A stretch of DNA of 64,000 nucleotides from Lingula anatina (GCA_051362555.1 CM120642.1:21762001-21826000), one strand, 5' to 3'; positions 32,747-64,000 are shown, counted from the first letter of the stretch. Numbers and translations are program-made. The notes: generated from the sequence alone by a model not told the origin.

Positions 32747-33299
32747 TTCATGTATGAAACTGCATCAAAATATTTACCATTGTTTAGAGTTAACAAATTT
32801 GCCATCTCATATTCAAAGATATACATGCAATAAAAACAGATAACAGTGAATTAACTTAGTGATTGTGCAAGAGAGTCTGCTTATTGTGTAGGTAAATTTT
32901 TAAAGTGTGTTAAATGAATGCCCGTTTAATTGATTTATACCATCTTACCTCTTTAATGCTCTCAGCATCTGACACACTCTTTGTCTTTTATGTCGCCTGA
33001 AGAAAAAAATATGGAATAGAAACTATCTGTGTACAATTAGGATTTGGGCAAAAATACAGAATTGAAAACTCATTCAAAGACTTTTCATTAAAAAAATTAA
33101 TTATTTTCATGAAGACCAGATTAAGTATTTTAAGACCAGCTTAATTGCTTGAGCAACACTGTTCGTATGTACCTGTGCATGTTAGTGTGTGTGCATGCAT
33201 GTGCATGTTTAATATGTGTATAAAATCATAATTTAATCTTAATTGGCTCCATTCGACCAGATGCATGGGGAGGCATGTGAGAGGAGGAGATATTCAACC

Positions 33300-33682
33300 A
33301 GGACCAAAACTTTCACCCTAAAAATCAATAGCTTCAAGGGCCAGGGCTTGCACCCTGAGAGTCAACAGCTACAAGGACCAAAACTTGCATCCTGAAAATG
33401 AACAGCTACAGGGACCAAGACTTGCACCCTAAGAGTCAACAGCTACAAGGACCAAGATTTGCACGCTGAGAGTCAACAGCTACAATTAAGGATCAAGATT
33501 TGCACCCTGAGAGTCAACAGCTACAAGAACCAAGACTTGCGCCCTGGGAGTCAACAGCTACAAGGACCAAGACTTGCACGCTGAGAGTCAACAGCTACAA
33601 GGACCAAGACTTGCACCCTGAGAGTCAACAGCTACAAGAACCAAGACTTGCACCCTGAGAGTCAACAGCTACAAGGACCAAG
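33300..33682. repeat. 37-bp minisatellite, ~10 copies
   Basis: Unit GGACCAAGACTTGCACCCTGAGAGTCAACAGCTACAA head to tail with no spacers. Confidence 0.93.
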
Positions 33683-37405: not shown

Positions 37406-40400
37406 TTTTATGTACAGACACAGATGTGTCTGTACATATAGCCATCATCTGCGTCTGTCGTCGCCGTCGCCGTCGTCGCTGTCGTCGCCGTCGCCGTCGC
37501 CGTGCACTTTTACCGATAACACGATAAGTGGAAAACCATTTTACCTTTTGACTTGAAACTTGCAGAACTGATGAATATTCATAATACGCAGGTCAAGTTC
37601 GAAAATCAGCATGATCGGGTCACTTTTAGGGAATTTATGCTGTTTTTTCACTTTTTTCAGCATATATGCAGCACCGATAACACGATAAGTGGAAAACCAT
37701 TTTACCTTTTGACTTGAAACTTACAGAACTGATGAATATTCATAATACGCAGGTCAAGTTCGAAAATCAGCATTATCGGGTCACTTTTAGGGAATTTATG
37801 CTGTTTTTTCACTTTTTTCAGCATGTATGCAGCACCGATAACACGATAAGTGGAAAACAATTTTACCTTTTGACTTGAAACTTACAGAACTGATGAATAT
37901 TCATAATACGCAGGTCAAGTTCGAAAATCAGCATGATCGGGTCACTTTTAGGGAATTTATGCTGTTTTTATGTACAGACACAGATGTGTCTGTACATATA
38001 GCCGTCATCTGCGTCTGTCGTCGCCGTCGTCGCCGTCGCCGTCGTCGCCGTGCACTTTTACCGATAACACGATAAATGGAAAACTGTTTTTTCTTTTGGT
38101 ATGAAACTTACAGAACTGATGAATATTCATAATACGCAGGTCAAGTTCGAAAATCAGCATGATCGGGTCACTTTTAGGGAATTTATGCTGTTTTTTCACT
38201 TTTTTCAGCATATATGCAGCACCGATAACACGATAAGTGAAAAACCATTTTACCTTTTGGCTTGAAAGTTACAGAACTGATGAATATTTATAATACGCAG
38301 GTCAAGTTCGAAAATCAGCATGATCGGGTCATTTTTAGGGAATTTATGCTGTTTTTTCACTTTTTTCAGCATGTATGCAGCACTGATAACACGATAAGTG
38401 AAAAACCATTTTACCTTTTGGCTTGAAAGTTACAGAACTGATGAATATTCATAATACACAGGTCAAGTTCGAAAATCAGCATGATTGGGTCATTTTTTGG
38501 GAATTTATGCTGTTTTTTCACTTTTTTCAGCATATATGCAGCACCGATAACACCATAAGTGGAAAACCAATTTACCTTTTGGCTTGAAACTTGCAGAACT
38601 GATAAATATTCATAATACGCAAGTCAAGTTCGAAAATCAGCATGATTCGATTATTGTTAGGGAATTTATGCTGTTTTTTCACTTTTTTCAGCATATATGC
38701 AGCACTGATAACACAATAAGTGGAAAACTGTTTTTTCATTTGGCTTGAAACTTACAGAACTAATGAATATTCATAATATGCAGGTCAAGTTTGAAAATCA
38801 GCAAGATCGGGCAATTTTTATGGAAGTTATCCTGTTTTTTTTTTTTTTTTTTCAATTTTTTCAGCACTTTTATAACACCGATAACATGATAAGTGTAAAA
38901 ATGTTTTTCCTTTTGGATTGAAATTTACAGAACTGGTGAATATTTATAATACGCAGGTCAACTTTGAAAATTGGCATGATTGGACTATTTTTTACAAAAG
39001 TAATGCTGTTTTTTCCCTTTATTCAGCATACATGCAACACTGATAACGCATTTTAAGGAAAACCAATCAGCCTTTTGTCTTGCAACTCACAGGAGTGATC
39101 AATCTGACCAGTATACAGATCAAGTTTGAAAATAAGCTTGATCAGTTAAGTTTTGATGAAGTTATTAGCCTTTTTGTATATAAGTGGTTTTTCTTCAGAT
39201 TTAATTCTTAAGCATGTTAACAGTCTCATTACAGAACTAATTGGATATGTAAAAGTGTTGTTTTAACATTTTCTGCTTCTTAACAATATTGTTAGTTGAT
39301 TATATAAAAATGACGGTAAACCTATTATCGTGCATTGTGTAATAAAGTATCAAAAATGGAAAGGAACTCATCATTGCAGTTCGTCAGATTCAATCATTCA
39401 CTATGTTCAGAATCTCCAAATGTAGCTAATTGGACATTATAAATTGTTCTATTGATACTTTTCCTATGTCAACAATTTTCCTAGTTGATCATTTAAAAAT
39501 GACAGTTAATTGATTATGGTTTTATGTAAAAAAGGTGTTGAAAATGGAAAGAAAATCATTTCAGTACAGTTATCTCTTGTTAACATTTTGGCATTTTGAA
39601 AGTGTGACCCTAACTTCCATGTCCTTGGAGACCTTTCCATATCACATTTTCTGAATATCCATAATACTTTCATTTTTTTATAAAAAAATTGATGGTCATT
39701 ATGTTGCTAAGTATTATGTTATATTGCATGAAAGTTAAAGATTACCCTATTTTGGACACTGCTGCCAGGATAGCGATTAAGGGAAAACCATGTTACTTAT
39801 GATAATCAACCTTACTGAAAATACTGAAGTGCAGCTTGTGTTGGAAAACCATCGTAATTGTTTTCTGTTTTGAAAGCAATGCAGTACAGTGCTATTTGGT
39901 GCAATAAATGTATATGGATAGTAGGCAGTTAATTCAGGGTTATAAAATAATTTGCTTAATTGATTTTCAAGTTATTTCAGGGTTATAAAACAATTTGCTT
40001 AATTAATTTTCAAGTGGGCATTAAATGAGATTACATAAACACACATTGAGATTTCATTGTAAAGTCCCATCGGTTTAGCTTTCTTAACTGTGTCACATAA
40101 TTAGGAATCGATGATTATTATGCAGGTAAATGTTATTTAATATGGAAAATAAGTTTACAAAAAAAAAATTTGTGTAACGCTTACATTAATGCTAAAGATG
40201 AGTAACAGTGCCTTATTATTCTCAAACTCAATAGGGTTATTCATATCATGTTAGTAATTGTACAGCTAGATTAAAAGTTTGAATAGCAGCTTTGTTGGTA
40301 TTTTTTGTTATGTTTTATTTTACATTTTCTTTTAATTTTTTATGCTGTTTTTTCACTTTTTTCAACATATATGCAACATTTATAACACAATATAAGAAAA

Positions 40401-44105: not shown

Positions 44106-45087
44106 TTGTATGACTATGGTTTCCGTGCCAGTATGTGTTTGCACATATTCTGATCACTGTGTACGGTCTTAGTTGTCACTGTCAACATCTGTGTTTATAT
44201 ATGTACACATACATATACAGTGACAATATAGACATACACAATGATCAGAGTATATGAAAACAAACAGTGACAATACACAAAAACGACAAAACAGATGTAC
44301 ACAGTGATCAAAATATATGTAAAAAAGTAAAGTACCAACACAACCATGCACAATAATCAGATTAAACACAAAGAAATATCTAGTGAAATCACAGTCATCA
44401 AAAGTTATATAACAAACACATTCAGATTGGAAGCAGCAAGTGGAATATAAACAGACATATAGTCTATGCTTACAGTAACCACACCAACATGCACAGTAAT
44501 CAGAATGATTACAAACAAATAGAATGAAAAAATTTAACATACACAGAGATCAGAATATATGCAAACACATACAGGGAAACCACATATATACAAAGAGTTC
44601 AGAAAATTAATATTAATCAGACACATATTGACAATACAGAATGTAAAATTTAATCAGAATATACCGGTATACAGACACATTGTTACAGAGACAATACAGA
44701 TTGTAGACAGTGATAATAATATATGCAGATATATATGCAATATGTGCAGATACCTTTATTAACAACACAAACATACACAGTGATTAAAGTAAATATTAAC
44801 ATGTACAGTGACAACAAACCCATGCACAGCAATCACAAATTAGTAGAGTAAAAACACCGTCATGCACAGTGATCAAAATACATATATGCAAACATATACA
44901 GTGATAATACACACATACACAGTGATTGGAATATATGGAAACACAGCAAGTGTAATATCACAAACATACACAGTGATCAAAATAGATATTTACATGTACT
45001 GTGACAATGCAGAATGGACACAAATATCAGAATATAAACAGACACATAGGTTTACAGTGACAACACCAACATGCACAGTAATCACAA

Positions 45088-45338
45088 CGGTTGACCTCTT
45101 TGCAACCCCACAATTTGAAATGTGTGCACTAGTTGTTTATTTTAAATGTAGATACTTCAGGGGCACATGTTTATATCATTTATCAACATTATTCAATGTT
45201 TATATTAATCTCCTTTATTTCTTTTTATTAATGGGACCTCCAATAATTGCAGCCATCATCGGCCAAATTTCAAACATCCCAAATTTCGACATATCATATT
45301 ACTTACATCACCTTAGATCAAGGAGACATAAATATATA
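45088..45338. mobile_element. Unclassified interspersed repeat, copy 1
   Basis: Homologous to 59919-60204; ends ttagatcaaggagacataaatatata. Confidence 0.7.
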
Positions 45339-45404
45339 GTGATATCACAGACATACATTGTGATCACAATATGTGCAAACACATACATTAACAACACAAA
45401 CATA

Positions 45405-45635
45405 GGGGAGACTGGGGCTAGTTGGCCTCGGGGTAATTAAGTTGGTCCCCCATCAATTTATGACAAAGTTACTATAGGATAAAAGAATTGACCACATCAT
45501 TTTGTAAAGTGACAGTATCCAATAGTGTTAAGAAAGCATCGGCAGTGAGTCCAAATGAAATAATTTAGCATCTTAAAGTAATTTTATTAAAAAGACATGA
45601 TGGGGGCCAACTTATACCGGGGGCCTGGTCTCCCC
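45405..45635. mobile_element. Internally deleted copy of the 2179-6972 TA-TSD family
   Basis: TA|GGGGAGACTGGGGCTAGTTGG...GGTCTCCCC|TA; interior aligns to 2179-2400; splits a satellite unit. Confidence 0.85.
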
Positions 45636-45734
45636 TACACAATGATGGAAATAAATATTAACCTGTACAGTGACAACACAAACGTTTGCAGTAATCGTAT
45701 TCACACAATTAAATAGAGTAAAAGCACAGACATG

Positions 45735-45809
45735 CCCTTACGAAAAAGTCCTATAGGATCCTATAAGATCCTATAGGATCCTGTAGGAAATTGGGCCAAA
45801 TTGTTAGGG
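45735..45809. mobile_element. 75-bp CACTA/EnSpm-like mini element
   Basis: CCCT...AGGG termini, 2-bp TSD TG, interior of palindromic cctataggat repeats. Confidence 0.6.
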
Positions 45810-48800
45810 TGAACATTGATCACATGTACAAACACATACAGTGAAGATTCAGAATGGGCACAGCAATCAAAATATATAAAGAAACATATGGACATAAACA
45901 CATACAAAGTAATCACAATATGTACAGACACATACAGCAACAACTTTAACATACACAATGATCAAAATTAATGCAAATACAAACAGCAAGAACACAAATA
46001 TACCTAGTAATAACAATGATTACAAACAAATAATGACAAAGACAAACACAGTGACAAGAATACATGCAAACACATAAAGTAACAATACAGAATAGACACA
46101 GCTAACAGAATACAAAGAGGCACAGAGACATACATTGACAACATCATTATGCAGAGTAATAGTAATGATTACAAACAAATAGAGTGACAAAACTGACATA
46201 CACAGTGCTCACAATGCATTGCTCACAATAAATGTAAACACAGACAGTGACAACACTAACAGGCACAGTAATCAAAATGAACACAAAAAAAAAAAAAAAA
46301 AAAAAAAAAAAACAGAGTGACAAACCTTACGATCGTAGTGCTCACAATAAATACAAACACCAACAGCCAACAGTAATGACACAAACATACACAGTGATCA
46401 CAATAAATACAAACATAAACAGTGACAACACAAACATGCAGATTGATAATAATAATAATTACAAACAAATAGGAAAAACAGACTTACACAATGATCAGAA
46501 TCATATGCAAACACAAACAGTAACAACACAAACATATACAGTGGTCAAAATAAATATTAACACAGTGACAACAGTAACGTGCATCATAATGACAATGAAT
46601 ACAAGGGAAAATAAGGAATACATAGCTGTACACAGTCATCACAATGTAAACAAACACATTTAGTCACAATATAGAATAGACACAGCAAACAGAATATAAA
46701 CAAACACAAACACAAAGACATGCATTGACAACATCATCATTGAACGCAACAGTAATGATTAAAAACAAATAGAGTGACAAAACCGACATACACAGCGCTA
46801 ACAATAAATACAAACATAAACAGTGACAATACAAACATGCATAGTAATAATAATGATTACAAAAAAAAAAAAAACAAACAAACAAAAAAAAACAAAACAA
46901 AAACAAACAGACTTACACAATGATCAGAATCATATGCAAACACAAACAGTAACAACACAAACATACACACTGATCAAATGAAATATTAAAATGTACATTG
47001 ACAACAGTAACATACACCATAATGACAATGAACACAAGGAAAAATAGTGAAAACATAGCTGTAAACAGTCATCACAATGTATACAAACACATTCAGTAAC
47101 AATACAGGAATAGAAACAGCAAACAGAATATAAAGAAACACATAGAAATACATTGACAATACCATCATTCAATGCAATAGTAATGATAACAAGCAAAAAC
47201 AGTGATAATACTTCTATACACATTGCTTGCAATAAAAACAAAGACAATGACCACACAAACTTGAACAGTTATGTACATAAATTCAAACAAACATAATCAC
47301 AATACAAAAATAATCAAAGATCAGAATGAATTGACACGTACAGTGACAACGCAACCGTGCACAGTAACCAGAATGAACACAAATTAATTGGTTGATTACA
47401 CAGTCATACACAGTGATCAGTGATGAAGTGAAAACACAGACATACACAGTGATCACAACATATATACAAACACATACAATGACAATACAGAATTAAAACA
47501 GCACTCGGAATATAAACAGACACATAAACTATGCTTATATCAACATCACCAACATGAACAGTTATTATAATGATTTAAAACATAAAGACAGAAAAAAACT
47601 GCCATAAACTTTGCTGACAATAAATATAAACACAAACAGTAACAACACAAACATATACAGTGATCACAATAAATAGAAAGACAAACAGTGTCAAAACAAA
47701 CATGCACAGCAATGATAATGATTACAAACAAGTAGAAGGACAAACAGACCTACACAGTGCTGAGAATTAAATGCAGACACAAACAGTAACAACACTTAAA
47801 TACACGGTAATCAAAATAAATATTAATATGTACATTGACAACAGCAACGTGCAGCATAATGACAATGAACACAAGGGAAAAGAGTGAAAACATAGCTGTA
47901 CACATTCATCACAATATATAAAAACATTCAGTAACAATATAGAATAGACACAGAAAACAGAATATAAACAGAAACATAGAAATACAGTGACAATACCATC
48001 ATTCAACACAATAGTTATAATGATAAACAAACAGAGTGAAAAAACTGACATACACATTGCCAAGAGTCATATAAAGACACAAACAGTAACAACACTAAAA
48101 TATCAAGGGCTCACAATAAATACAAACACCAACAGTGACAAAACAAACATGCACAGTAATGATAATGATTACAAACAAATAGAAGGACAAACAGATTTAC
48201 ACAGTGATAAGAATTATGTGCAGATACAAACAGTAATAACACAAACATAAATATTAACAGGAACAGTGATAACAGTAACATGCATAGTAATTACAATGAA
48301 CGCAAAGAAAAAAAGTGAAAACACAGTCGTACACAGCCATCACAATATATACAAACACATTTAGTAACAATATAAAATAGACACAGCAAACAGAATATAA
48401 ACAGACACATAAACACACATTGACAACACCATCATTCAACACAAAAGTAATGGTTACAAAGAAATAGAGTGAATAAACTGACATACACATTGCTCACAAT
48501 AAATACTAACACCAACAGTAATGACTCAAACATACATAGTGATCACAATAAAAACAAACACAAGCAATGTCAACATAAACATGCACAGTAATGATAATGA
48601 TTACAAATGAATAGAAAGACAAACAGACACTTACAGTGATCAGAATTATGTGCAGACACAAACAGTATCAACACAAACATACACAGTGATCAAAATAAAT
48701 ATTAAGCGGAAAAATAACGCGAACAGTAATGACAATAAACAGAAGGAAAAAGAGTGAAAACAGCCGTACACAGTCATCAAAATATATACAAACACATTTA

Positions 48801-51800
48801 CTCACAATATAAAATAGACACAGCAAACAGAATATAAACAGATACATTGGAATACATTGAAAACACTATCATACAACACAATAGTAATGATTACAGAGTG
48901 ACAAAACTGAAATACACAGTGCTCACAATAAATACAAACACCAATAGTAACATGGCAAACATATACAGTGATGACAATAAATACAACCAAAAACAGTAAC
49001 AACACAAACATGCATAGAAATGATAAAGATTACAAACAAATAGGACAAACAGACTTACACTGTGATCAGAATCATATGCAAACACAAACAGTAAATATAC
49101 AAACATCCACGGTGATCAAAATAAATATTTACATGTACAGTGAAGAAAGTAACCTGCACCATAATAACAATGAATACAAAGAAAAATAGTGAATACAGAG
49201 CAGTAAACAGTCATCACAATATATACAAACACATTCAGTAACAATACAGAATAGGCAAAGCAAACAGAATATAAACAGACACATAGACACATTGACAACA
49301 CCATCATTCAGCGAAATAATAATTATTATAAAAAAATAGAGTGACAAAACTAACATACACATTGCTTGCCATAAAAACAAACACAGACAGTGACCACACA
49401 AACATGAACAGTAATGTACCTAAATACAAACAAACATAATCACAATACATAAATACACAAAGATCAGAATGAATTGACATGTACAGTGATAACACAACGT
49501 GCACTGTAACCAGAATGAACACAAATTAATTGGTTGATTACACAGTGATCAGTGACTATGTGAAAACACAGACATACACAGTGATCACAATATATATACA
49601 AACACATATAATGACAATACAGAATGGAAACAGCAACCGGAATATAAACAGACACAAACTATGCTTACATCAACATCACCAACATGAACAGTTAAAATAA
49701 TGATTTAAAACATATAGACAGAAAAAACTGACATAAACATTGCTCACAATAAATATAAACACAAACAGTAACAACACAAACATATACAGTGATCACAATA
49801 AATAGAAAACATGCACAGCAATGATAATGATTACAAACAAGTAGAAGGACAAACAGACCTACACAGTGCTGAGAATTAAATGCAGACACAAACAGTAACA
49901 ACACTAACATTCACAGTGATCAAAATAAATATTAATATGTATATTGACAACAGTAACGTGCACCATAATGACAATGAACACAAGGGAAAAGAGTGAAAAT
50001 ATAGCAGTACACATTCATCACAATATATACAAACACATTCAGTAACAATATAGAATAGACAAAAAAAAAAAAAAAAAAAAAAAAAAAACAGAATATAAAC
50101 AGAAACATTAACATACATTGAAAACTCCATAATTCAGCGCAATAGTAATGATTACAAACAAACAGAGTGACAAAACTGACCTATAAAGTGCTCACAATAA
50201 ATACAAAAACGAACAGTAATGACACAAACATATACAGTGATCACAATAAATAGAAACACAAACAATGACAAAACAAACATGCACAGCAATGATAATGATT
50301 ACAAACAAATAGAAGGGCAAACAGAGTTACACAGTGATCAGAATTTTATGCAGCCACAAACAGTAACAACACAAACAAACACATTCAGTAACAATACAGA
50401 AAAGACACAGCAAACAGAATATAAACAGACACATAGACATAACATTGACAGCGTGATCATTCAGCACAGTAGTAATGAATATAAATAAATAAATTGACAA
50501 TACAAACATGCACAGTAATCAAAATAAATACAAACAAACACAGTCACAATACAGACATACAATGTGATCAGAATAAGTAAACATGTACAGTGACAACAGA
50601 ATCATGTAAAGTAACCAGAATAATCACAAATTAATCTAGTGATTACACAGTCATATACAGTGATCAATGATAGAGTGCAAAGAAACACATACAATGTGAT
50701 CACAATATATTTACAAACACAGACAATGACAAAACAGAATGGAAACAGCAATCAGGGAATAAACAGATACATAAACTATGCTTACAACAACAACAACACC
50801 AAGATGCACATTTATAATAATGATTAAAAACATATAGACTGATAAATCTGACATACACAGTGCTCACAATAAATCTAAACACAAAGAGTGACAACACTAA
50901 CATGCACAGTAATCAAATCAATTATGTTTAGACACAAACAGTAATGACACAATCATACACAGTGATCAAAATAAATATTAACATATGAAGTGACAAGAGT
51001 AACATGCACCGTAATAAGAATGAACACAAGGAAAAAGAGTGAAAACACAACCATACACAGTCATCATAATATATACAAACACATTCAGAAACAATAGTGA
51101 ATAGACACAGCAAACAATTAATATAAACAGACACATAGTCATACATTGAGAACACCATTATTCAGAGCAATATCAATGTTTACAAACAAATAGAGTGACA
51201 AAACTGACACACGCATTACTCACAATAAATTCAAACACCAACAGTAATGACACAAACATGAAAAATAATTTAAATAAATGCAAACTGACAAAGTCACAAA
51301 CACAGACATAAACAGGGATCAGAATAAATTTTGACATGTACAGTGACAACACAACCATGCACAGTAATCAGAATGAACACTAATTGATTAGGTAATAGCA
51401 CAGTCATACACAGTGATCAATGATGGAGTGAAAATACACACATACAATGTTATCATAATATATATACAAACACAGAAAATGACAAAACAGAATGGAAACA
51501 GCAATCAGGGTATAAACAGACACATAAGCTATGCTTACAGCAACAACACCAACATGCACATTTATAATAATAATTAAAAACATTATAGACTGAAAAAACT
51601 GTCATGTACTAGTGCTCACAATAAATATAAACATAAAGAGTGACAACACTAACATGCACAGTAATCAAATCAATAATGTGCAGACACAAACAGTAACGAC
51701 GCATATGTTGTCAATCATACACAATGATCAAAATAAATATTAACATATACAGTTATAACAGTAACATGCATCGTAATGAAAATGAACACAAGAAAAAAGA

Positions 51801-54495
51801 GTGAAAACATAGCCGTACACAGTCATCACAATATATACAAACACATTCAGTAACAAAAGTGAATGAACACAGCAAACAGAATATAAACAGACACATAGTC
51901 ATATATTTGACAACATCATCATTCAGCACAATAGTTATGTTTACAAACAAATAGAGTGACAAAACTGACATACACATTGCTCACAATAAATACAAACACC
52001 AACAGTAATGACACAAATATGAGCAGTAATGTAAATAAATACAAACACAGTCACAATACAGACATACACAGTGATCAGAATAAATTTTGACATGTGCAGT
52101 GACATCACAACTATGCACAGTAACCAGAATGAAGACTAATTAATTTGGTGATAACATAGTCATACACAGTGATCTGTTATGCAGTGAAAACACAGACATA
52201 CACAGTGATCACAATATATATCCAAACACATACAATGACAATAGAGAATGGAAACAGCAATCGGAATATAAACAGCCACATAAACTATGCTTACTGCAAA
52301 ACACCAACATGCACAGTTATAATAATGATTAAAAACATATAGACAGAAAAAACAGACATAAACATTGCTCACAATAAATGCAAACACAAATGGTAACAAC
52401 ACAAACATACACAGTGATCAAAATAAATGTTACCATGAACAGTGATAACAGAAATATGCACAGTTATGAGAATGAACAAGGAAAAAAAGTGAAAACATAG
52501 CCATACAAAGTCACCACAATATATACAAACACATTCAGTTATAATACAGAATAGAAACAGCAAACAGAATATAAACAGACACATAGACGTACATATACTG
52601 CACAATCATACGATGCAGTAATAATTATTATAAACAAATAAAGTGACAAAAAGACAAACACAGTGAGAAGAATACATGCAAACACATTCAGTGACAACAC
52701 AAACATGCACACTGATCAAAATAAATACAAACAAACACAGTCACAATACAGACATACACAGTGATCAGAATAAGTTGACATGGACAGTGACAAGACAACC
52801 ATGTAAAGTAACCAGAATGATCACAAATTAATCCAGTGATCAATGATGGAGTGAAAATACACACATACAATGTGATCATAGTGTATGTGTCTGTTTATTC
52901 CCTGATTGCTGTTTCCATTCTGTTTTGTCATTGTCTGTGTTTGTAAATATATTGTGATCACTTTGTATGTGTTTCTTTTCACTCTATCATTGATCACTGT
53001 GTATGACTGTGTAATCACTAGATTAATTTGTGCTTATTCTGGTTACTTTACATGGTTCTGTTGTCACTGTACATGTTTACTTATTCTGATCACAGTGTAT
53101 GTCTGTATTGTGACTGTGTTTGTTTGTGTTGTCAATTTATTTATTTATAATCATTACTACTGTGCTGAATGATCATGCTGTCAATGTTATATCTATGTGT
53201 CTGTTTACATTCTGTTTGCTGTGTCCTTTCTGTATTGTTTCTGAATGTGTTTGTATATATTGTGGTGACTGTGGATTGCCTTGTTTACACTTTTTCCCCT
53301 TGTGTTCATTCTCATTACTGTGCATGTTATCTCTTTTTCATTTAATATCTATTTTGATCACTGTGTTTGTTTGTGTTGTTACTGTTTGTGGCTGCATGTT
53401 ATCTCTTTTTCATTTAATATCTATTTTGATCACTGTGTTTGTTTGTGTTGTTACTGTTTGTGGCTGCATAAAATTCTGATCACTGTGTAAGTCTGTTTGC
53501 CCATCTATTTGTTTGTAATCATTATCATTGCTGTGCATGTTTGTTTTGTCATTGTTTGTGTTTCTATTTATTGTGATCACTGTATATGTTTGTGTCGTTA
53601 TTGTTCATTTTTGTATTTATTGTGAGCACTGTGCATTTCTGTCACTCTATTTGTTTGTATTCATTTTGATTACTGTGCATGTATATGTTGTCAATGTTTA
53701 TGTTTGTGTTTCTATTGTGATCACTGTAATATTTCATTTGATCAGTGTGTATGTTTGTGTTGTCACTGTTTGTGTTTGCATATGATTCTGATCACTGTGT
53801 AAGTCTGTTTCTCCTATTTGTTGGTTATCATTATCATTACTGTGCATGTTTATCATTACTGTGCATGTTTATTTTGATACTGTTGGTGTTTGTATTTATT
53901 GTGAGCACTGTATATGTAAGTTTTGTCACTCTATTTGTTCGTAATTATTACTATAATAATGGAGTTTTCAATGTATGTTTATGTTTATATTCTGTTTTTT
54001 GTGTCTATTCTATATTGTTACTGAATGTGTTTGTATATATTGTGATGGATGTGTACAACTATGTTTTCACTCTTTTCCCTTGTGTTCATTGTCATTATGG
54101 TGCACGTTACTGTTGTCAATATACATATTGATATTTATTTTGATCACTGTGTATGTTAGTGTTGTTACTGTTTGTGTCTGCATTTAATTCTCAGCACTGT
54201 GTAGGTCCGTTTGTCCTTCTACTTGTTTTCAATAATTATCATTGCTGTGCATGTTTGTTTTGACACTGTTTGTCTTTCTATTTATTGTGATCACTGTATA
54301 TGTTTGTGTTGTTAATGTTTGTGTTTATATTTATTGTGAGCAATGTTTATGTCAGTTTTTTCTTTCTATATGTTTTAAATCATTATTATAACTGTTCATG
54401 TTGGTGATGTTGATGTAAGCATAGTTTATGTGTCTGTTTATATTCCTATTGCTGTTTCCATTCTCTATTGTCATTGTATGTGTTTGTATATATAT

Positions 54496-54609
54496 TAAAT
54501 AAGTACACTGTACTATTTGTCTTTAAGCGTTTATTGGTCCAACTTGACAATGATCGCTATCTGAAACAGAAGATAAATTACTTAAGTCTACATGAATAAT
54601 AATCCTATA
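54496..54609 (-). repeat. 3' LTR (114 bp)
   Basis: Direct repeat of 59653-59766; preceded on the sense strand by PPT GGGAGGAGA (54610-54618). Confidence 0.93.
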
Positions 54610-54759
54610 TCTCCTCCCAAGTCTTTAGGTTCACTGATCAGTCAGTGGAAAGACTGAAATGTTTCAATGATCCATGAGAGGTCACTAGTGTTTGAAAACA
54701 AGTAAACTACAAAGTAACAGTTAAACTGAATATGCAAATGACAACAGGAATTCAAATGT

Positions 54760-57700
54760 TTATGACAGTTCATAGTCTTTTTGCCAAGCTGGGGGTCGAG
54801 TGGCATGAGTGGAGCGTCTAGGTTGATCCATGGTAAGAGGCTGTGACATTCCAGGTTGACTATCCACTGTCCTTGGGCGTGGAGTGGTGCAAACACGTGT
54901 GCTAACACTGACTGGCCTAGGTGGTGATGCATTCCCCAAAGGTAAAATACAGCGCTTTGGGGTGACGGTCCCTTTGGATGGCGTATCTGTGGAGGGTGAG
55001 GGTGTGTTGAACAGTTGAGGAATGGGTGGCGCAGTCAATGACGGCAGGGTTTCACACTGCGTTTGTGTGTCATGAGACTGTGGGGTAGCCTTGGCCTTAG
55101 GTGTTGCAGGTAGGCCAGGGATTTCTTCCTTGCGTTCCTCCTGATCAGTGGCAACCTTGGCAGGGAGTGTTGGAACAGAGCCAGGGATTTCCTTCCTTGT
55201 CTCCTGATCAGCTACAAGTTTGGCAAGTGGTGGAGTAGCATGCGGAAGCTGAAGATCAAGATCTATGGTCTGGATTGGTGTGGGTTGCAGGACAGGTGTG
55301 TAACGCTGGAGGAATTTCCTGTTCCGTAATGTAACTCGTCCCGAGCCATCTACTCTCACAACATATTGATCAAACTGCCGTACTTCAACTACGGTCCCAG
55401 TCTTGTCCCACAGGGGGTGAGGGCCTGTCTGGTTCTGGATTCGGACACGATCCCCTACTGCAAGGGGCACGAGTCTCTTGGTGTGCTCCGTAAGGCGTTC
55501 TGCCATCTTCATATGGCGATTTCTGAGCACTTCCTCCCTAGCCTTAAGGGTCTCTTGCCAAGTGGTGTGTGGTTTATATCTTCCCGGTGGAATGGGGATG
55601 AAATCACGGATAGGGTGCCCGAAGACGCACATTGAGGGTGAGAATTTGGTGTCTCTGTCTGGGGTGTTCCTGTACTGAAGCATAGCACACTGAAAGCTGT
55701 CCGTGTCCAGGTCACCACTGGGGCTGGTATTGTCTGTGATGAGGCGTTTTACTGTCTTAACCCCAACTTCAGCATGACAGTTACTATGGGGAAAGGCTAC
55801 TGATGACATACGATGATGTACACCCCAATCAGAAAGAAACTTCTTGGTGGCAGTTGATGTGAACTCCGGTCCCCCATCTGAGGATAGCTCATTGGCTATG
55901 CCAAAGGTGACAAATGTCCGTCGAAGAGAAGCTATCAGGCCAGCCGCTCCTTGGGATGCTCTCTCCACAATCGGCCAGTTGGAATAACGATCAACAATGA
56001 CAAGGTAGTTATTACCCATGTAGTGGAAGTAGTCAGCACAGTTGCACTGGAATGGGTAGTCAGGATACATCAATGGTGTCGGAGGGGCACTCGGTTGGGA
56101 GGGGGTCATGCGGTTGCAGTGGTTACAACCTGTTCTGGTGGATATTATATCGGGTGTAATGCCAGGCCAGAAGACTGAGGACTCGGCTCTGGTTATCATA
56201 GAGGAGATCCCCTGATGGGCGCTGTGCAATGTAGAGAGGACGTCTTGCCTTAATGCAGGTGGGATGACTACACGGTCTCTATACAACACAACTCCGTCGA
56301 TTGTGCTGAGGTCCTCCTTGAACTGATTATTACTCGCGAAGCTTGATGGGGAACTCTTGGCGGCTCTCTGGCAGACCTGAGATTATTAAGTCTACTAGCA
56401 TAGCCATATCTGCATCACTTGTGGTTGCTGTGTGTACTCTGTCCCAGGTCACTGATTTCAAGGTGATGGATGCAAGAGAGGATGTAAGTGCAGAGATCAT
56501 GTTTTCCTCCATGGGGATGTGATTGGGGGCAGGGGATCTGATTTGAGACAGAGGGTGATGTTGGCTGACAGTAGCAACGTCATCAGGGAGTGGGAGCTTA
56601 TCTGGATCTCCTGTGGGATGACGAGATACGCAATCTGCAGCAAGGTGTTTGAACCCACGTATATGTACCGTCTGGAAGCGGTATCTGAGGGTCTTCTCCT
56701 TCAAGTTTCTTAGGCGGGGGTTGTTGATATCATCAAGGGACCTGCCGCTAAAGACCTTCAGTAATGGCTTGTGGTCAACTGCAATGATGAGGTCGTGACA
56801 TCCAAGGACAGAGTACCTTGTCTTGTTCAGAGCATCAGCAACAGCTAGGGCTTCACCCTCGATGGGGGCATATCGCGATTCAGCAGAGTGGGTGAAACGG
56901 CTGCCTACAAGAGTAATCTTCCATCCAGATGGGCAGCAGAATGGTCGGATAGGCTGGCAAGAGCAATGCTTCTGTAAGAGCCAGAACCCAATTCCATTTT
57001 TGGACCAGTCAGTTGCAAGGCATGTGCGCCTGGACTTGTCAAATATTCGGACCCCCTCTTCAATTTCCTTGGAGATGACAGCCTTGGATTCTTCGAAGAA
57101 ACTGTTGAGATCCTCGTCCCATCTGAAGGGCATTCCAGGTTGAAGAAGACATCTAAAGGGAAGCATTTTGTCTGCCATGCTGAAGGCATATGATACCTGG
57201 TTGACCAAACCAAACCATGATCGCACATCAGTGATGTTTCGAGGGGTGGGAAAGTCCAAGATGGCCTGAAGGTACTTGGAACTGGGCTTGACACTTTCCA
57301 GGGTAATGTCAAATCCTGCAAATTCCACCTCATCTTGTGCGAAAACAAATTTCTTTGGGTTCAGGGTGATGCCATGTCTACCACAGATGTCTAACCACTC
57401 TACGGCTTTGAAGAAACTCCCCTCTATTGAGCTGGACCAAAGTAGGACATCATCGACACATTTGGTTTTGTTGGTTATGTGCGAGACAATTTCGTCGTAT
57501 CTCCTGGTGTACCCATCACCTGAAGCAATGTACCCTTGCAACCTTGTATCAGTATCTGCCCCAGGGTGTGATAAACGTTGTGAGATGGCGATCCTCCTCA
57601 CGAATGGGTACACTGTGGTATCCATTCCAAGCATCCAGAACTTTCTTTTTCTTGCCTTGGGGCACAGCCCTGGCTTGGTGAAAAGGAGAAGGGGTGTGGT

Positions 57701-59627
57701 GGGTCTCTCGTGTAGCATATGCATTCAGAGCCTGTAGATCAACTGTGCGGCGTAGCCTGCCATTGTTCTTCGCACATACAACCATGCGGTGGCACCAGGT
57801 GACTGGCTCGCCAATTGGGACTGGTTCGATGACCCCTAGTCTGACATCTTGGTCAAGTCCTGCTTTCACTTCTTCCTGCCAGTGAAGTGGGACTGGTATT
57901 GGAGTGTGATAGGCTACTGGTGCCGCAGAAGGGTCTACCATCAATTTCATTGGCGGGCTGTCCATAAGGGGCAAGGGCTGATGATCACATATATTAAATG
58001 TACTGGACCTGTAATAGTCCAGAAGGTATTCTTTCAGTCACCCACATTTCTGTTCCGTCGCAGGGAAAGGCAGCTTGGTTGGAGGCGGGGGAGGTGGTTG
58101 ACGTTTGGGGCAAGTGCATGTGTGTTGGGCATCAGCACCACATGCTGTAAGGGTAATGTCAGGAAACACGATGCCAAGTGCAATACATGCCTCCCTGCTG
58201 ATAAAGAGCTTGTCAGAGCTGTCGGTGACATAAGTCATCTGTCTTGTTTCCACCGGTTTGCCAGATGGGCCCCTCCCAGCATAGCGAAGTATAGTTGCTC
58301 CAAGAATGTTGATGCCATTGTTGACAGCAGTGTGCATCTTCATAGTGACTGGGATCAGGGCCTGTCGCTTCAAGCCTAGACGTTGCATTACCTTAATGCC
58401 AGCAAGGCAGCTCTGACAACCAGTGTCAGCCATTGAGGGATGTTCTATTGGTGTGGCCGAGGATAGAAGGCTGAAGCCTAGCTCTCTGTAATCATCTGCA
58501 CAGACCGTGATTCTGAGGTTGACGAACGGTTGTGGTTTGGAAGCTCTTCGCACCCACGTGTCATTCAATTGATCATAGATATGATGATCTAAAGCAATGG
58601 CCCTGCCTTTTGTATGTTGTGTTGTGATGGTGACAGAGCAGAGCAATTCAAATACTGCGCCTTCACAGTCATCTGCCTCATGACAGGAAGTAGTCTTCTG
58701 GCTCGGCTTGGGTTTGTCTTTGCTACAGCACACTATTTCTAGGTGGTGGTATCGAGTGCAGGTCTGGCATTTGTGTCCAAAGGCGGGGCAATCTCTCTTA
58801 CGAATGCGTAGAGGAGCAGCCTTGCCATGGCCAGTTTTTCCGCAGTAGCCACAGGGGTCCTGGGGTGGTTTTTCGGCAGGGGTGGAGGTCTCTTTTTTCT
58901 TGCGTCGGTAAGTGCTACCGATGGCCTCAGCTGCTTGGGATTCTTGTAAGCGAGATGCAGAGCGCTTCCCTGCTTCTTTTGCTTCCACAAATTGGAGGAC
59001 TTCCTCCAGTGTCATGTCCTGGTTCTTATCCCCTAAAAGGTCTATTTGGATCTCAGAGTCTGCTAGTCCACGGGTTAGAACATCACGGGTCATCTCCTCC
59101 ATGTAGCTTACAGCAGTGTTGCAAATGGGGCATGAGACAGAAAATTTGCACACTCCTGCCTGGCCTTTTAGACGGGCTCCATAGTTGCGGACAGGTTCAT
59201 CTCTGTCTTGGCGCATGTTCTGTAGTGTCACTCTAGCCACCATTGTGTTCTCTGTGCGTACCGCTAATGCTTTGATTGCGGCCATCACCTCATCAACAGA
59301 TTTGTTTGCAAGGCTCCCACCTGCTGTCCTAGTTAGGTCTTTTCGCAAGGGGTCATCACAACATTTCAGCAATTGGATAACCCTGTCTTTGCCAGCTATT
59401 TTTGTTGCATCAGCATATTCTGTCCATCTGGACTGAAAGTATGACCACTCTTCGCTGGTACCGCAGGCTGATATTGTGGGCCGCTTGGCTTTCTCCACTT
59501 TGGCTGCAGTAACAGGAGCGTTGGTATGAACAGAGCTGTGTGTGGTGAGTAGGGCTGCTACGATAGTGGCGTCAAGGTCATCTGTGGTGTAGTCACAGCC
59601 TTCTATTGGACACTGGACTGCCGGCAT
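54760..59627 (-). pseudogene. Gypsy gag-pol, disrupted near 58040, 57550 and 56330
   Basis: Gag with twin zinc knuckles (CGYCGKTGH..., CQTCTRYHHLEIVC), protease ADTG, RT (LDAWNGYHSVP, QGYIASGDGY, KCVDD), RNase H (TDWSK, YAPIEGEALA, DHKPL), integrase (HSAHQG..CNHC, ADYF, SDGGPEF, AEVGV), then a Pro/Thr-rich tail. Confidence 0.93.
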
Positions 59628-59640
59628 GCTGTCAGGTATG

Positions 59641-59652
59641 AGATAGCGATCA
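59641..59652 (-). promoter_or_regulatory. Primer-binding site complementary to the element's own LTR
   Basis: Sense TGATCGCTATCT directly after the 5' LTR is the exact reverse complement of AGATAGCGATCA at 59719-59708 in the LTR; it lacks the TGG of a tRNA PBS. Confidence 0.8.
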
Positions 59653-59766
59653 TAAATAAGTACACTGTACTATTTGTCTTCAAGCGTTTATTGGTCCAAC
59701 TTGACAATGATCGCTATCTGAAACAGAAGATAAATTACATAAGTCTACATGAATAATAATCCTATA
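59653..59766 (-). repeat. 5' LTR (114 bp)
   Basis: Sense TATAGG...ATTTA; contains AATAAA (59692-59687). Confidence 0.93.
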
Positions 59767-59779
59767 TTTATTGTGATCA

Positions 59780-59782
<3 letters not shown>

Positions 59783-59851
<69 letters not shown>
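59783..59851. repeat. (TA)n microsatellite at a satellite orientation switch
   Basis: Pure TA run, followed by a short tandem tggcttacacagtttt repeat (59882-59921). Confidence 0.95.
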
Positions 59852-59853
<2 letters not shown>

Positions 59854-59918
59854 AAGTTTGGCATAGTCAAACGTTTATTTATGGCTTACACAGTTTTGGC
59901 TTACACAGTTTTGGCTTA

Positions 59919-60204
59919 CAGTTGGCCTCTTTGCAACCCCACAATTTGAAATATGTGCACTATTTGTGTGGCATTATAATTTTAATGTAGATACTTCTGG
60001 CGCACACATAATGTTTATATCATCTATCAACATAATTCAGTGTTTATTAATAATACGCTTTATTTCTTTTATTAATGGGACTTCTAATAAAAGCGGCCAT
60101 CATCGGCCAAATTTCAAACATCATACTTGAGTTTGTTCCATTCTTTTAAAGGACTGATCCTAGTTCTAACATCAGCTTAGATCAAGGAGACATAAATATA
60201 TATA
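59919..60204. mobile_element. Unclassified interspersed repeat, copy 2
   Basis: Homologous to 45088-45338, same orientation, same terminus. Confidence 0.7.
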
Positions 60205-63200
60205 CCAACACAGACAACGACAAAACGGAATGGAAACAGCAATCAGGGTATAAACAGACACATAAACTATGCTTACAGCAACAACACCAACATGCACGTT
60301 CATAATAATGATTAAAAACATATAGACTTAAAAAACTGCTTACAGATTGCTCAAAATAAATATAAACACAAAGAGTGACAACACTAATATGCACATTAAT
60401 CAAATTAATTATGTGCAGACACAAACAATTATGACACAATCATACACAATGATCAAAATAAATATTAACATGTGAAGTGACAAGAGTAACATGCACCGTA
60501 ATAAGAATGAACACAAGGAAAAAGAGTGAAAACATGGCCGTACACAGTCATCACTATATATACAAACACATTCAGTAGCAATATTGAATAGACACAGCAA
60601 ACAGAATATAAACAGACACATAGTCACACATTGACAACACCATCATTCAGCGCAATAGTAATGTTTACAAACAAAAAGAGTGACAAAACTGACTTACGCA
60701 TTGCTAACAATAAATACAAACACCAACAGTAATGACACAAATATGAATAGTAATGTAAATAAATACAAACAAACACAGTCACAATACAGACATACAAAGT
60801 GATCAGAATAAATTTTGACATGTACAGTGACAACAAAACCATACATAGTAACTAGAATGAAGAATAATTAATTAGGTGATAGCACAGTCATACACAGTGA
60901 TCAGTGATGGAGTAAAAACACAGACATACACAGTGATCACAATATATATACAAACACATACAATGACAATACAGAATGGAAACAGCAATTGGAATATGAA
61001 CAGACACATAAACTATGCTTACATCAACATCACCAACATGAACAGTTATAATAATGATTTAAAACATATAGACAGAAAAAACTGACATAAACATTGCTCA
61101 CAATAAATATAAACACAAACATTAACAACACAAACATATACAGTGATCACAATAAATAGAAAGACAAACAGTGTCAAAACAAACATGCACAGCAATGATA
61201 ATTATTGAAAACAAGTAGAAGGACAAACAGACCTACACAGTGCTGAGAATTAAATGCAGACACAAACAGTAACAACACTAACATACACAGTGATCAAAAT
61301 AAATATCAATATGTATATTGACAACAGTAACGTGCATCATACACATGACAATGAACATAAGGGAAAAGAGTGAAAACATAGTTGTACACATCCATCACAA
61401 TATATACAAACACATTCAGTAACAATATAGAATAGACACAAAAAACAGAGTATAAACAAAAACATAAACATACATTGAAAACTCCATTATTCAGCGCAAT
61501 AGTAATGATTACGAACAAATCAAGGGACAAAACTGACCTATAAAGTGCTCACAATAAATACAAGCACCAATTGTAATGATGCAAACATATACAGTGATCA
61601 CAATGAATACAAACTTAAACATTGACAACATATACATGCACAGTAATCGAAATGAATACAAACAAATAGAGTTACAGAAATGCACAGAGCTCACAATAAA
61701 TACAAAAACGAACAGTAACGACACAAACATATACAGTGATCACAATAAATAGAAACACAAGCAATGACAAAACAAACATGCACAGCAATGATAATGATTA
61801 CAAACAAATAGATGGGCAAACAGACTTACACAGTGATCAGAATTTTATGCAGCCACAAACAGTAACAACACAAACAAACACAGTGATCAAAATAGATATT
61901 AAATGAAAAAGAGATAACAGTAACATGCACAGTAATGAGAATGAACACAAGGGAAAAAAGTGTAAACAAGGCGATACACAGTCATCACAATATATACAAA
62001 CACATTCAGTAGCAATACAGAAAAGACACAGCAAACAGAATATAAACAGACACATAGACATAACATTGACAGCATAATCATTCAGCACAGTAGTAATGAT
62101 TATAAATAAATAAATTGACAACACAAACATGCACAGTAATCAAAATAAATACAAACAAACACAGTCACAATACAGACATACACTGTGATCAGAATAAGTA
62201 AACATGTACAGTGACAACAGAACCATGTAAAGTAACCAGAATAAGCACAAATTAATCTAGTGATTACACAGTCATACACAGTGATCAATGATAGAGTGAA
62301 AAGAAACACATACAATGTGATCACAATATATTTACAAACACAGACAATGACAAAACAGAATGGAAACAGCAATGGGAATATAAACAGACACATAAACTAT
62401 GCTTACAGAAACAACACCAACATGCACATTTATAATAATGATTTGTCATTAAAATATATACAAACACATTCAGAAACAATAGTGAATAGACACAGCAAAC
62501 AATTTATATAAACAGACACATAGTCATACATTGACAACACCATCATTCAGGGCAATAGTAATGTGACAAAACTGGCAAACACATTGTTCACAATAAATAC
62601 AAACACCAACAGTAATGACATAAACATGAACAGTAATGTTAATAAATACAAACAAACACAGTCACAATACAGACATACACAGTGATCAAAATAAGTTGAC
62701 ATGTACAGTGATGACACAACCATGTAAAGAACACAGTGACCGGAATATGTGCAGACACAAACAGTAACAACACAAACATACACAGTGATCAAAATGAATA
62801 TAAACATGTACATTGATAATAGTAATGTGCACTGTGATTAGAATAAACACAAGGAAAAAGTAAAACCATAGCCGTACACAGTCATCACAATATATATAGA
62901 AACACATTCAGTAACAATACATAATAGACACAGCAAACAAAATATAAACAGAAACATAGCCATACATTGACAACACAATAAATACAAACACAGACAGTGA
63001 CAGCACTAACGTGGACAGGAATCAAAATAAATTTAAACAAATAGAGTGACAGAAATGACATACACAATGCTCACAATAAATACAAACACCAACAGTAATG
63101 ACGCAAACATATACAGTGATCACAATAAATAGAAAGACAAACAGTGTCAAAACAAACATGCACAGCAATGATAATTATTGAAAACAAGTAGAAGGACAAA

Positions 63201-64000
63201 CAGACCTACACAGTGCTGAGAATTAAATGCAGACACAAACAGTAACAACACTAACATACACAGTGATCAAAATAAGTATTAATATGTATATTGACAACAG
63301 TAACGTGCACCATAATGACAATGAACACAAGGGAAAAGAGTGAAAACTTAGTTGTACACATCCATCACAATATATACAAACACATTCAGTAACAATATAG
63401 AATAGACAAAAAAAACAGAATATAAACAAAAACATAAACATACATTGAAAACTCCATTATTCAGCGCAATAGTAATGATTACGAACAAATCGAGTGACAA
63501 AACTGACCTATAAAGTGCTCACAATAAATACAAGCACTAATTGTAATGATGCAAACATATAGAGTGATCACAATGAATACAAACTTAAACATTGACAACA
63601 TATACATGCACAGTAATCGAAATGAATACAAACAAATAGAGTGAGAGAAATGCACAAAGCTCACAATAAATACAAAAACGAACAATAACGACTCTAACAT
63701 ATACAGTGATCACAATAAATAGAAAAACAAACAATGACAAAACAAACATGCACAGCAATGATAATGATTACAAACAAATAGAAGGGCAAACAGACTTACA
63801 CAGTGATCAGAATTTTATGCAGCCACAAACAGTAACAACACAAACAAACACAGTGATCAAAATAGATATTAAATGAAAAACTGATAACAGTAACATGTAC
63901 AGTAATGAGAATGAACACAAGGGAAAAAAGTGTAAACAAGGCAATACACAGTCACCACAATATATACAAACACATTCAGAAACAATACAGAAAAGACACA

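What the first reader, a model, noticed from the sequence alone, without database searches (positions are those of the whole stretch)
59627..59766. tRNA-independent, self-priming architecture in an animal Gypsy retrotransposon with no chromodomain
Seen: the sense strand reads U3(47 nt)...ctgtttc-AGATAGCGATCAt-tgtcaag...AATAAA...attta|TGATCGCTATCT-13 nt-ATG. The position where a tRNA PBS (TGG...) should sit holds a perfect 12-13-nt complement of a sequence inside the LTR, and that LTR sequence is present in both LTRs. It begins at the A of an initiator-like TCAG, so it is the plausible 5' end of the transcript. Established: S. pombe Tf1 and related Tf1/sushi elements prime reverse transcription by annealing the first ~11 nt of their mRNA to the PBS, followed by RNase H-dependent cleavage. 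Inference: this element does the same, although its twin-knuckle Gag, its RT signature (WCHRMVVCAK, DAWNGY, KCVDD) and its lack of a chromodomain do not look like the Tf1/sushi group. That would imply an independent or little-studied origin of self-priming. I cannot verify whether this lineage is already catalogued.
Basis: partly seen in the sequence, partly recalled or inferred. Interest (0 to 1): 0.88.

Follow-up and report, generated by a model that had tools for sequence, protein, structure and literature searches.

The report
Self-priming animal Gypsy clade, TA-ended
This broken jumping gene and most of its relatives from other animals lack the usual tRNA docking site and carry there a short stretch that pairs with a piece of their own terminal repeat, in different letters from family to family, so the group likely starts copying itself with its own RNA, probably as an invention separate from the yeast Tf1 group.

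Summary
Observation confirmed and extended. The window holds a decayed 5.3-kb Ty3/Gypsy element on the minus strand (114-bp LTRs, 59766-59653 and 54609-54496). The 12 nt after the 5' LTR are the reverse complement of LTR bases 59719-59708. Among 78 loci (77 relatives plus the window), 64 have a perfect stem of 10 bp or more upstream of gag, against 0 of 78 controls. 34 of 39 families keep the stem at the LTR end, with 32 different primer sites and none starting TGG. LTRs end TA...TA with 5-bp target duplications. No chromodomain was found, and the Tf1 'pretzel' side helices are not supported. The nearest outgroups in two trees are TG...CA, TGG-primed, Mag-like elements, so an independent origin is likely; no chromovirus could be placed in the tree. 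Unproven: the transcript start, the cleavage and the priming itself. The arm's outer end fits both an initiator (TCA) and a splice acceptor (pyrimidines plus YAG). This scan noted self-priming animal Gypsy elements before on other DNA; I could not check whether they are this clade. My five paper searches on self-priming listed no description of it; Repbase could not be searched.

The parts
59653..59766 (-). 5' LTR, 114 bp, termini TATA...TTTA
   Evidence: other copies break off at 59766 and 59653 (loose ends); relatives end TA...TA
59720..59766 (-). Predicted U3, 47 nt, pyrimidine-rich at its downstream end; no canonical TATA box near -30
   Evidence: sequence; U3/R border inferred, not mapped
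59707..59719 (-). Putative self-primer arm AGATAGCGATCA(T), starting at the A of TCAG (initiator-like and also acceptor-like)
59687..59692 (-). AATAAA poly(A) signal inside the loop closed by the stem
   Evidence: sequence; AATAAA or ATTAAA lies in the loop in 16 of 34 families
59641..59652 (-). Primer-binding-site position, TGATCGCTATCT, abutting the LTR, no TGG
58038..59627 (-). gag and protease reading frame, ending at an in-frame stop; capsid-like fold, twin zinc knuckle, DTG protease motif, N-terminal Cys2His2-like motif
   Evidence: no Pfam match
57549..58037 (-). N-terminal piece of reverse transcriptase, broken off near 57550
56330..57523 (-). C-terminal RT (KCVDD) and RNase H piece, in another frame
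54760..56382 (-). Integrase piece (H2C2, rve) with proline-rich tail, no chromodomain
54610..54618 (-). Polypurine tract abutting the 3' LTR
   Evidence: same arrangement in relatives
54496..54609 (-). 3' LTR, 112 of 114 identical to the 5' LTR; holds the arm (54562-54550) but no primer site after it
59767..59771 (-). Left copy of a probable 5-bp target duplication (ATAAA)
   Evidence: 4 of 5 match to the right copy
54491..54495 (-). Right copy of the probable 5-bp target duplication (ATATA)

Best explanation
This is a dead copy of a widespread animal Ty3/Gypsy clade whose primer site pairs with a stretch of its own LTR, and the clade likely primes reverse transcription with the first 11-19 bases of its own RNA instead of a tRNA. 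Shown: the pairing, its co-variation across families, the absence of TGG, TA...TA ends, primer site and polypurine tract abutting the LTRs, no chromodomain. Inferred steps: (1) transcription starts at or within about 2 nt of the A of the TCAG motif; (2) the RNA 5' end folds onto the primer site, closing a 32-81-nt loop that often holds the poly(A) signal; (3) the element's RT-RNase H cuts at the 3' end of the arm, near the conserved CA/U(U), giving a primer that usually ends in CA; (4) minus-strand DNA starts at the LTR's last base, so the cDNA would need no end trimming; (5) copying of the primer into plus-strand DNA rewrites the primer site each cycle, which would keep the two arms perfectly matched while their sequence drifts. 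The mechanism probably arose from a tRNA-primed, Mag-like ancestor, independently of Tf1/sushi.
For: Best stem of 10 bp or more in the 400 nt before gag in 64 of 78 loci, 0 of 78 in equal stretches inside gag; in 53 of those 64 the 3' arm starts at the LTR-end motif T(T/C)TA|T, which the search did not require. 34 of 39 families (gag at least 80% identical within a family) have an anchored stem of 9-19 bp; 32 distinct primer sites; all four Watson-Crick pair types occur at positions 4, 5, 7 and 8; a primer site pairs 10 bp or more with another family's LTR in 4 of 1122 pairs. 0 of 34 sites start TGG. Stem pair probability 0.85-0.99 in 33 of 34. A family fetched after the analysis (L174) has a 16-bp stem, z -5.27, 0 of 200 shuffles. 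TCA lies at the outer end in 18 of 34 against 6.4% background; pairing starts exactly at the A in 11. Outgroup Gypsy elements from the same MAG assemblies: 16 of 25 rows show TGG within 3 nt of the repeat end and none of 25 self-pairs beyond 8 nt. The clade (100/100) groups with L135/L136 (99/92; 100/100 without long branches), which have TG...CA LTRs, an abutting TGG site and a similar twin knuckle. RT, RNase H and integrase catalytic motifs are kept in 68-90 of 90 full-length relatives. Tf1 precedent, including copying of the primer into cDNA ends: passages of PMC4600332, PMC10085805, PMC11042837.
Against: No transcript start was mapped: 5-28 reads per run, no pile-up of ends. The outer end fits a 3' splice site as well as an initiator: YAG in 19 of 34 against 9.4%, upstream pyrimidine share 0.68 against 0.49. 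7 of 34 families have no YAG near the arm start and 16 of 34 lack TCA there; in L050 and L051 pairing runs 2-4 nt upstream of the A. Nine of the 11 'starts at A' families look alike and are not independent. The Tf1 side helices are not supported: leader duplex p 0.72, U5 stem p 0.048 by permutation but mean z -0.11 against shuffles. 5 of 39 families failed the anchored test (L009, L031, L045, L060, L078). L013's stem is not favoured in folding. The clade sits on a long stem branch (1.93, 1.15) and no chromovirus is in the tree. Pairing at positions 0-8 is imposed by my selection of stems of 9 bp or more; only the variety of pair types and the controls count as evidence.
Confidence: 0.72

Rival explanations
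1. The element self-primes, but the arm is the start of an exon: the pyrimidine tract and YAG in front of it act as a 3' splice site, so upstream host transcripts are cis-spliced, or a spliced leader is trans-spliced, onto the arm. Only a cut at the arm's 3' end is needed to make the primer.
For: YAG at offset 0-2 in 19 of 34 families; upstream pyrimidine share 0.68 against 0.49, median AG-free zone 31 against 12 nt, branch-like YTRAY in 13 of 27 against 28% of control YAGs. Pairing starts right after the AG in L022, L039, L043, L046. U3 is only about 35 nt in L022, L039, L046, short for a promoter.
Against: Pairing includes the AG in 11 families, which an intron end would not need. L083 and L174 have TCA but no AG at the arm start. 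No upstream GT donor extends the pairing more than a control dinucleotide does. No joints in the laid contigs or reads (low depth). The long AG-free zone may follow from base composition alone. Recalled, not checked: molluscs, echinoderms, annelids and fishes are not known to use spliced leaders.
Confidence: 0.12
2. The stem serves mainly to hide the poly(A) signal of the 5' LTR (it cannot form in the 3' LTR), and priming uses another RNA that binds the same site, such as a small RNA made from the element's own 3' LTR copy.
For: AATAAA or ATTAAA lies inside the loop in 16 of 34 families; the stem is dominant in folding; the Tf1 side helices are missing.
Against: 18 of 34 families have no canonical signal in the loop. 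Occlusion would tolerate G-U pairs and bulges, yet stems are perfect and end at the LTR's last base. It does not explain the loss of TGG. It can coexist with self-priming.
Confidence: 0.08
3. Transcription starts at the conserved TCATT at the inner end of the arm, so the arm is U3 and exists only at the RNA's 3' end; the 3' copy pairs with the primer site and is cut to prime.
For: The inner end reads TCAT plus T in most families, which matches the initiator consensus TCAKTY quoted in PMC3601003.
Against: That conservation is already explained by pairing with the LTR end and TGA. Pairing stops sharply at an upstream TCA/YAG instead of running on into U3. Cutting there would remove the 3' R region needed for strand transfer (inference).
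Confidence: 0.05
4. A host tRNA or tRNA fragment primes, and the self-complementarity is incidental.
For: Host tRNAs could not be searched; none lies in the window. Half-tRNA priming without TGG is known in copia elements (PMC6317226, PMC10886601).
Against: 32 different primer sites in 34 families, each matched by its own LTR and almost never by another; 0 of 34 start TGG.
Confidence: 0.03

Closest known systems
Tf1, Tf2 (Schizosaccharomyces pombe), Tj1, Tosmo1-3 and the Tf1/sushi group of chromoviruses, with plant Tcn1
   Same: Ty3/Gypsy domain order; primer site right after the 5' LTR is complementary to an LTR stretch at the predicted RNA 5' end (passages of PMC4600332, PMC10085805, PMC6317226).
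   Different: No chromodomain; LTRs end TA...TA where the fission-yeast elements always end CA; no support for the three-helix pretzel; RT has C(V/I)DD; duplex 11-19 bp; nearest relatives in my trees are TGG-primed.
Mag lineage of Ty3/Gypsy (A, B, C clades; MolGy3, MolGy11, PolGy1, LGF7-9)
   Same: Short LTRs, 5-bp target duplication, about 5 kb, one ORF, as tabulated for Mag elements in PMC3286476; twin zinc knuckle (recalled as a Mag trait); hosts include molluscs and annelids, where MolGy3, MolGy11 and LGF7-9 were described (PMC6238403, PMC8556966, PMC8220671).
   Different: Described Mag elements use tRNA-Leu, -Ser or -Arg sites (PMC3286476). No labelled reference sequence was available, so the clade name is unresolved; it may be one of the named but unannotated clades.
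TAR lineage (Houba, Osr-1) of plant Ty1/copia
   Same: Self-priming predicted from sequence outside Tf1/sushi (passages of PMC6317226), so separate origins have precedent.
   Different: Other superfamily and kingdom; also untested.
Skipper (Dictyostelium) and fungal GalEa copia
   Same: No TGG primer site (PMC5006619; GalEa as cited in PMC6934838).
   Different: Skipper has a polypyrimidine stretch and no complement in its LTR; GalEa has an internal hairpin, not LTR pairing.

Membership tests
Ty3/Gypsy (Metaviridae-like) LTR retrotransposon | gag-PR-RT-RH-IN order between LTRs, PPT, target duplication | tested here: met
   best PDB sequence matches are Ty3 Gag-Pol and Ty3 RT; Gag model resembles PNMA2 and dArc capsids, best E 2e-3
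Tf1/sushi group | Primer site complementary to an LTR stretch instead of a tRNA | tested here: met
Tf1/sushi group | That stretch is the 5' end of the transcript | tested here: inconclusive
   initiator-like TCA in 18 of 34; RNA reads too few
Tf1/sushi group | Chromodomain at the integrase C-terminus | tested here: not met
   0 of 30 full-length relatives and the window piece
Tf1/sushi group | LTR ends in CA | tested here: not met
   TA...TA in the window and in two-LTR relatives; L174 and L040 end GA
Tf1/sushi group | Three-duplex pretzel around the primer site | tested here: not met
   leader duplex no better than cross-family pairs (p 0.72); U5 hairpin weak (p 0.048; mean z -0.11); tests used fixed 12-32-nt windows and may miss short helices
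Tf1/sushi group | RT-RH phylogeny within chromoviruses | tested here: inconclusive
   nearest rows are TGG-primed non-chromoviruses but no chromovirus could be fetched
Tf1/sushi group | RNase H-dependent cleavage makes the primer | not testable with these tools
   RNase H acidic motifs kept in 68-89 of 90 relatives; activity not tested
Mag lineage | Short LTRs, 5-bp target duplication, about 5 kb, single or two ORFs | tested here: met
   5 of 5 TSD match in 8 and 4 of 5 in 4 of 17 two-LTR loci, many from one family; 90 of 120 hits over 1500 aa in one ORF
Mag lineage | tRNA-Leu, -Ser or -Arg primer site | tested here: not met
   0 of 34 start TGG
Mag lineage | RT-RH groups with Mag, SURL, CFG1, Gulliver, Hydra2-1 | not testable with these tools
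   no named references; outgroups L133, L135, L136 are called Mag-like from their LTR size, TSD, TGG sites and recalled motifs
Splice-junction primer (earlier scan notes on BEL/Pao) | Primer site pairs with an exon-exon joint made inside the LTR | tested here: not met
   unspliced sequence already gives the full stem; GT donors extend it no more than control

The most novel reading that the evidence does not exclude
A pan-animal Gypsy clade left tRNA priming on its own by turning an ancestral CA|TGG junction into TA|TGA, primes with a single helix and no Tf1 pretzel, and in many families sets the primer's 5' end by host splicing at an acceptor built into a minimal U3, so that the element rides on host or spliced-leader transcripts instead of its own promoter.
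Probability: 0.12. Interest if true: 0.85.

Novelty: new variant of a known kind. Interest (0 to 1): 0.64.

Why it matters
Self-priming has been shown by experiment only for Tf1 and is treated as a mark of the Tf1/sushi chromoviruses. A broad clade in molluscs, echinoderms, crustaceans, cnidarians, annelids and fish, whose nearest sampled relatives are tRNA-primed, would show how the switch can happen and whether the Tf1 pretzel is needed. With more than 30 natural primer variants, the cleavage rule can be tested directly. Such elements would also escape silencing by 3' tRNA fragments (inference), and their TA...TA ends and missing tRNA site make them easy to miss with finders that demand TG...CA.

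Tried and rejected
No whole genome for the window. Viral contigs held no relatives; plasmids gave one distant hit. Clade motifs were not found in paper text or in the searched supplements of PMC6238403 and PMC8556966 (one picture PDF in each and files 13-14 of the second were not searched and may bear on the clade name). Attempts to get a chromovirus RT for the tree failed: PF24626 and PF00385 searches (L169 is an integrase with a chromodomain and its genome has no RT-RNase H match; I read it as Polinton-like from recall), a viral scan and a protein search. Pretzel helices and a splice-junction primer were tested and not supported. Searches for solo LTRs or primer-copy junctions in MAG contigs returned only the elements' own LTRs. 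ESM Atlas gave only unnamed or generic Gag clusters. Levin 1995, Lin and Levin 1997 and 1998, and Atwood-Moore 2006 are not held; I know them only through citing passages. In one search the best stems of the window and L069 were (TA)n artefacts; both have real 13-bp stems.

Full report
1. The observation. The element lies on the minus strand. Its LTRs are 59766-59653 and 54609-54496, 114 bp, with 2 differences. Other copies of the family break off at exactly these ends (loose ends). A polypurine tract abuts the 3' LTR, and the flanks match at 4 of 5 bases. The 12 nt after the 5' LTR are the reverse complement of 59719-59708, and the LTR's last A adds a 13th pair. In 20,000 shuffles of the LTR, 12 reached 11 nt and none more; that test cut the stretch one base late. 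Folded from 59719, the stem is the best structure, z -3.09; with U3 included z is -1.24. Other copies carry a different base at 59641, so the family pairing is 11 bp plus the terminal pair.

2. The element. The frames hold gag-protease, RT, RNase H and integrase in Gypsy order, broken by stops and frameshifts near 58040, 57550 and 56330-56380. Pfam is silent on Gag; a model of the first 310 residues (mean pLDDT 79) matches PNMA2 and dArc capsids weakly, best E 2e-3. Relatives are many: 1543 proteins for the RT-RNase H piece and 336 long proteins for gag-protease. Named ones come from Mytilus, Elysia, Aplysia, Amphibalanus, Synaphobranchus, Diadema, Palaemon, Actinostola and Lamellibrachia; the stem was not tested in DNA of these named species. 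Of the 120 long hits listed, 90 exceed 1500 aa in one ORF, and 84 of those 90 read KC(V/I)DD. No chromodomain appears in 30 of 30 scanned.

3. Co-variation. A Gag alignment fetched the best 80 of 149 metagenome loci and 7 loci in host-derived contigs of MAG assemblies. With the window that is 88; 10 were dropped for under 130 nt upstream. Of 78, 64 have a perfect stem of 10 bp or more in the 400 nt before gag, against 0 of 78 equal stretches inside gag; in 53 of the 64 the 3' arm starts at T(T/C)TA|T, which was not imposed. Two-LTR loci show that this motif is the LTR end, with TA...TA termini and 5-bp duplications: 5 of 5 in 8 and 4 of 5 in 4 of 17 loci, many from one family. Grouped into 39 families, 34 have a stem of 9-19 bp anchored there, with 32 different primer sites and loops of 32-81 nt. 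A primer site pairs 10 bp or more with another family's LTR in 4 of 1122 cases, two pairs of families with the same site. The five failures are L009 (14-bp stem just outside the searched range), L031 and L078 (short upstream DNA), L060 (one mismatch) and L045 (site apparently deleted); these explanations come from reading the sequences. No site starts TGG; 25 of 34 start TGA. L174, fetched later, has a 16-bp stem, z -5.27. A host tRNA cannot track 32 sequences that each match their own LTR.

4. Where the RNA starts. This is the open point. RNA reads were few (5-28 per run) and gave no pile-up. TCA lies at the outer end of the stem in 18 of 34 families against 6.4% background, and pairing starts exactly at the A in 11, nine of them alike. 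That fits an initiator; PMC3601003 (passages) gives TCAKTY for LTRs. The same site also resembles a 3' splice site: YAG in 19 of 34 against 9.4%, pyrimidine share 0.68 against 0.49, branch-like motif in 13 of 27 against 28%. Against splicing: pairing covers the AG in 11 families, L083 and L174 have TCA without AG, and no donor extends the stem (test prompted by e1-7811049 and e1-7882409). In DNA contigs of runs X1 and X7 and RNA reads of X20 and X21, some copies have LTR plus 11-12 nt of primer site and then foreign DNA. These could be non-autonomous copies that kept the cis signal, or insertions of cDNA bearing a primer copy as described for Tf1 (passages of PMC11042837). I could not tell which.

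5. Mechanism. The 5' end likely folds on the primer site; the stem has pair probability 0.85-0.99 in 33 of 34 families. A cut near the conserved CA/U(U) would give a primer ending in CA in 28 of 34 families, and DNA synthesis would begin at the LTR's last base. Copying of the primer into plus-strand DNA would explain why the arms stay perfectly matched. These steps are inferred from Tf1 (passages of PMC4600332, PMC10085805, PMC11042837; the original Levin papers were not held). RNase H acidic motifs are kept in 68-89 of 90 relatives. Tf1 needs two more helices; here the leader duplex is no better than cross-family pairs (p 0.72) and the U5 hairpin is weak (p 0.048 by permutation, mean z -0.11 against shuffles). 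The loop holds AATAAA or ATTAAA in 16 of 34 families, so hiding the 5' poly(A) signal may be a second role.

6. Origin. Other Gypsy elements were taken from the same MAG assemblies (40 stretches). Of 25 rows with a repeat pair, 16 show TGG within 3 nt of the repeat end and none self-pairs beyond 8 nt; the other 9 were badly delimited, and two of them resolved to TG...CA with TGG. In an RT-RH tree of 50 rows the clade is one group (100/100) next to L135/L136 (99/92), then L137/L138 and L133. With 13 rows left out, among them the long branches L137 and L138, L135 stays sister (100/100). L135/L136 have 166-168-bp TG...CA LTRs, a TGG site abutting the LTR, a tract ending GGGGAGA as in the clade, and a similar twin knuckle; the primer sites of L137 and L138 were not found. 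These traits match the Mag lineage as tabulated in PMC3286476 (passages). Limits: the root is a midpoint, the clade's stem branch is long, there are no named references and no chromovirus, so independence from Tf1/sushi rests on the nearest neighbours and on the failed membership features.

7. What is in print. Five searches on self-priming, seen as listings, and passages of the papers cited here gave self-priming for Tf1/sushi, Tcn1 and, by prediction, plant copia TAR (PMC6317226), but no animal non-chromovirus Gypsy clade. The passages I saw from mollusc and annelid surveys name Mag-lineage clades without primer analysis (PMC6238403, PMC8556966, PMC8220671; the last lists TATA among rare termini). 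Other papers seen as passages: PMC6934838, PMC3587641, PMC5006619, PMC10886601 (also outline). Repbase and subscription journals could not be searched. The scan's own notes report self-priming animal Gypsy elements on other DNA (19 notes held the search words, some on BEL/Pao); sequence look-ups linked none to this clade, and some describe a primer that carries the poly(A) signal, unlike this one.

8. Verdict. Real, clade-wide and most likely self-priming (0.72 with an initiator-defined start, about 0.9 for self-priming of any form). It works like Tf1 but fails three Tf1/sushi membership features. New variant of a known kind; interest 0.64.

Noticed in passing
window 59520-59627 (-): Gag begins with a C-x4-C...H-x3-H motif, present in 78 of 90 full-length relatives; a possible extra zinc finger ahead of the capsid domain.
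   Followed up: partly
window 44200-64000: A satellite with a period of about 49 bp surrounds the element; the block 52870-54495 next to the element is inverted relative to the arrays on both sides.
   Followed up: no
L136, L171 (= L082), L173 (= L084): Clade members and the sister element in G002 contigs also sit inside tandem arrays with 49/98-bp spacing; may reflect which host contigs entered the MAG rather than targeting.
   Followed up: no
window 59641-59642, runs X1, X7, X20, X21: Copies with LTR plus primer site followed by foreign DNA: non-autonomous family or primer-copy insertions.
   Followed up: partly
G001-G005: These prokaryote-labelled assemblies hold 8 to 150 Ty3/Gypsy RNase H matches each, so they carry much eukaryotic host DNA.
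   Followed up: partly
L016, L018, L019: This family has a further inverted copy of the arm upstream in the LTR, able to form a competing 8-11-bp hairpin.
   Followed up: no
L134, L148: A TGG-primed element (primer site like that of CsRN1-clade GyRex2 in PMC3587641) whose LTR starts TG but ends TA.
   Followed up: no
NZ_CP087956.1 (hit H1): A 5332-bp record filed as a Wolbachia plasmid encodes RT and RNase H of a Gypsy-type element, probably host retrotransposon DNA.
   Followed up: no
window 33263-33748 and 37471-39182: Two further tandem arrays with periods of 37 bp and 161 bp.
   Followed up: no
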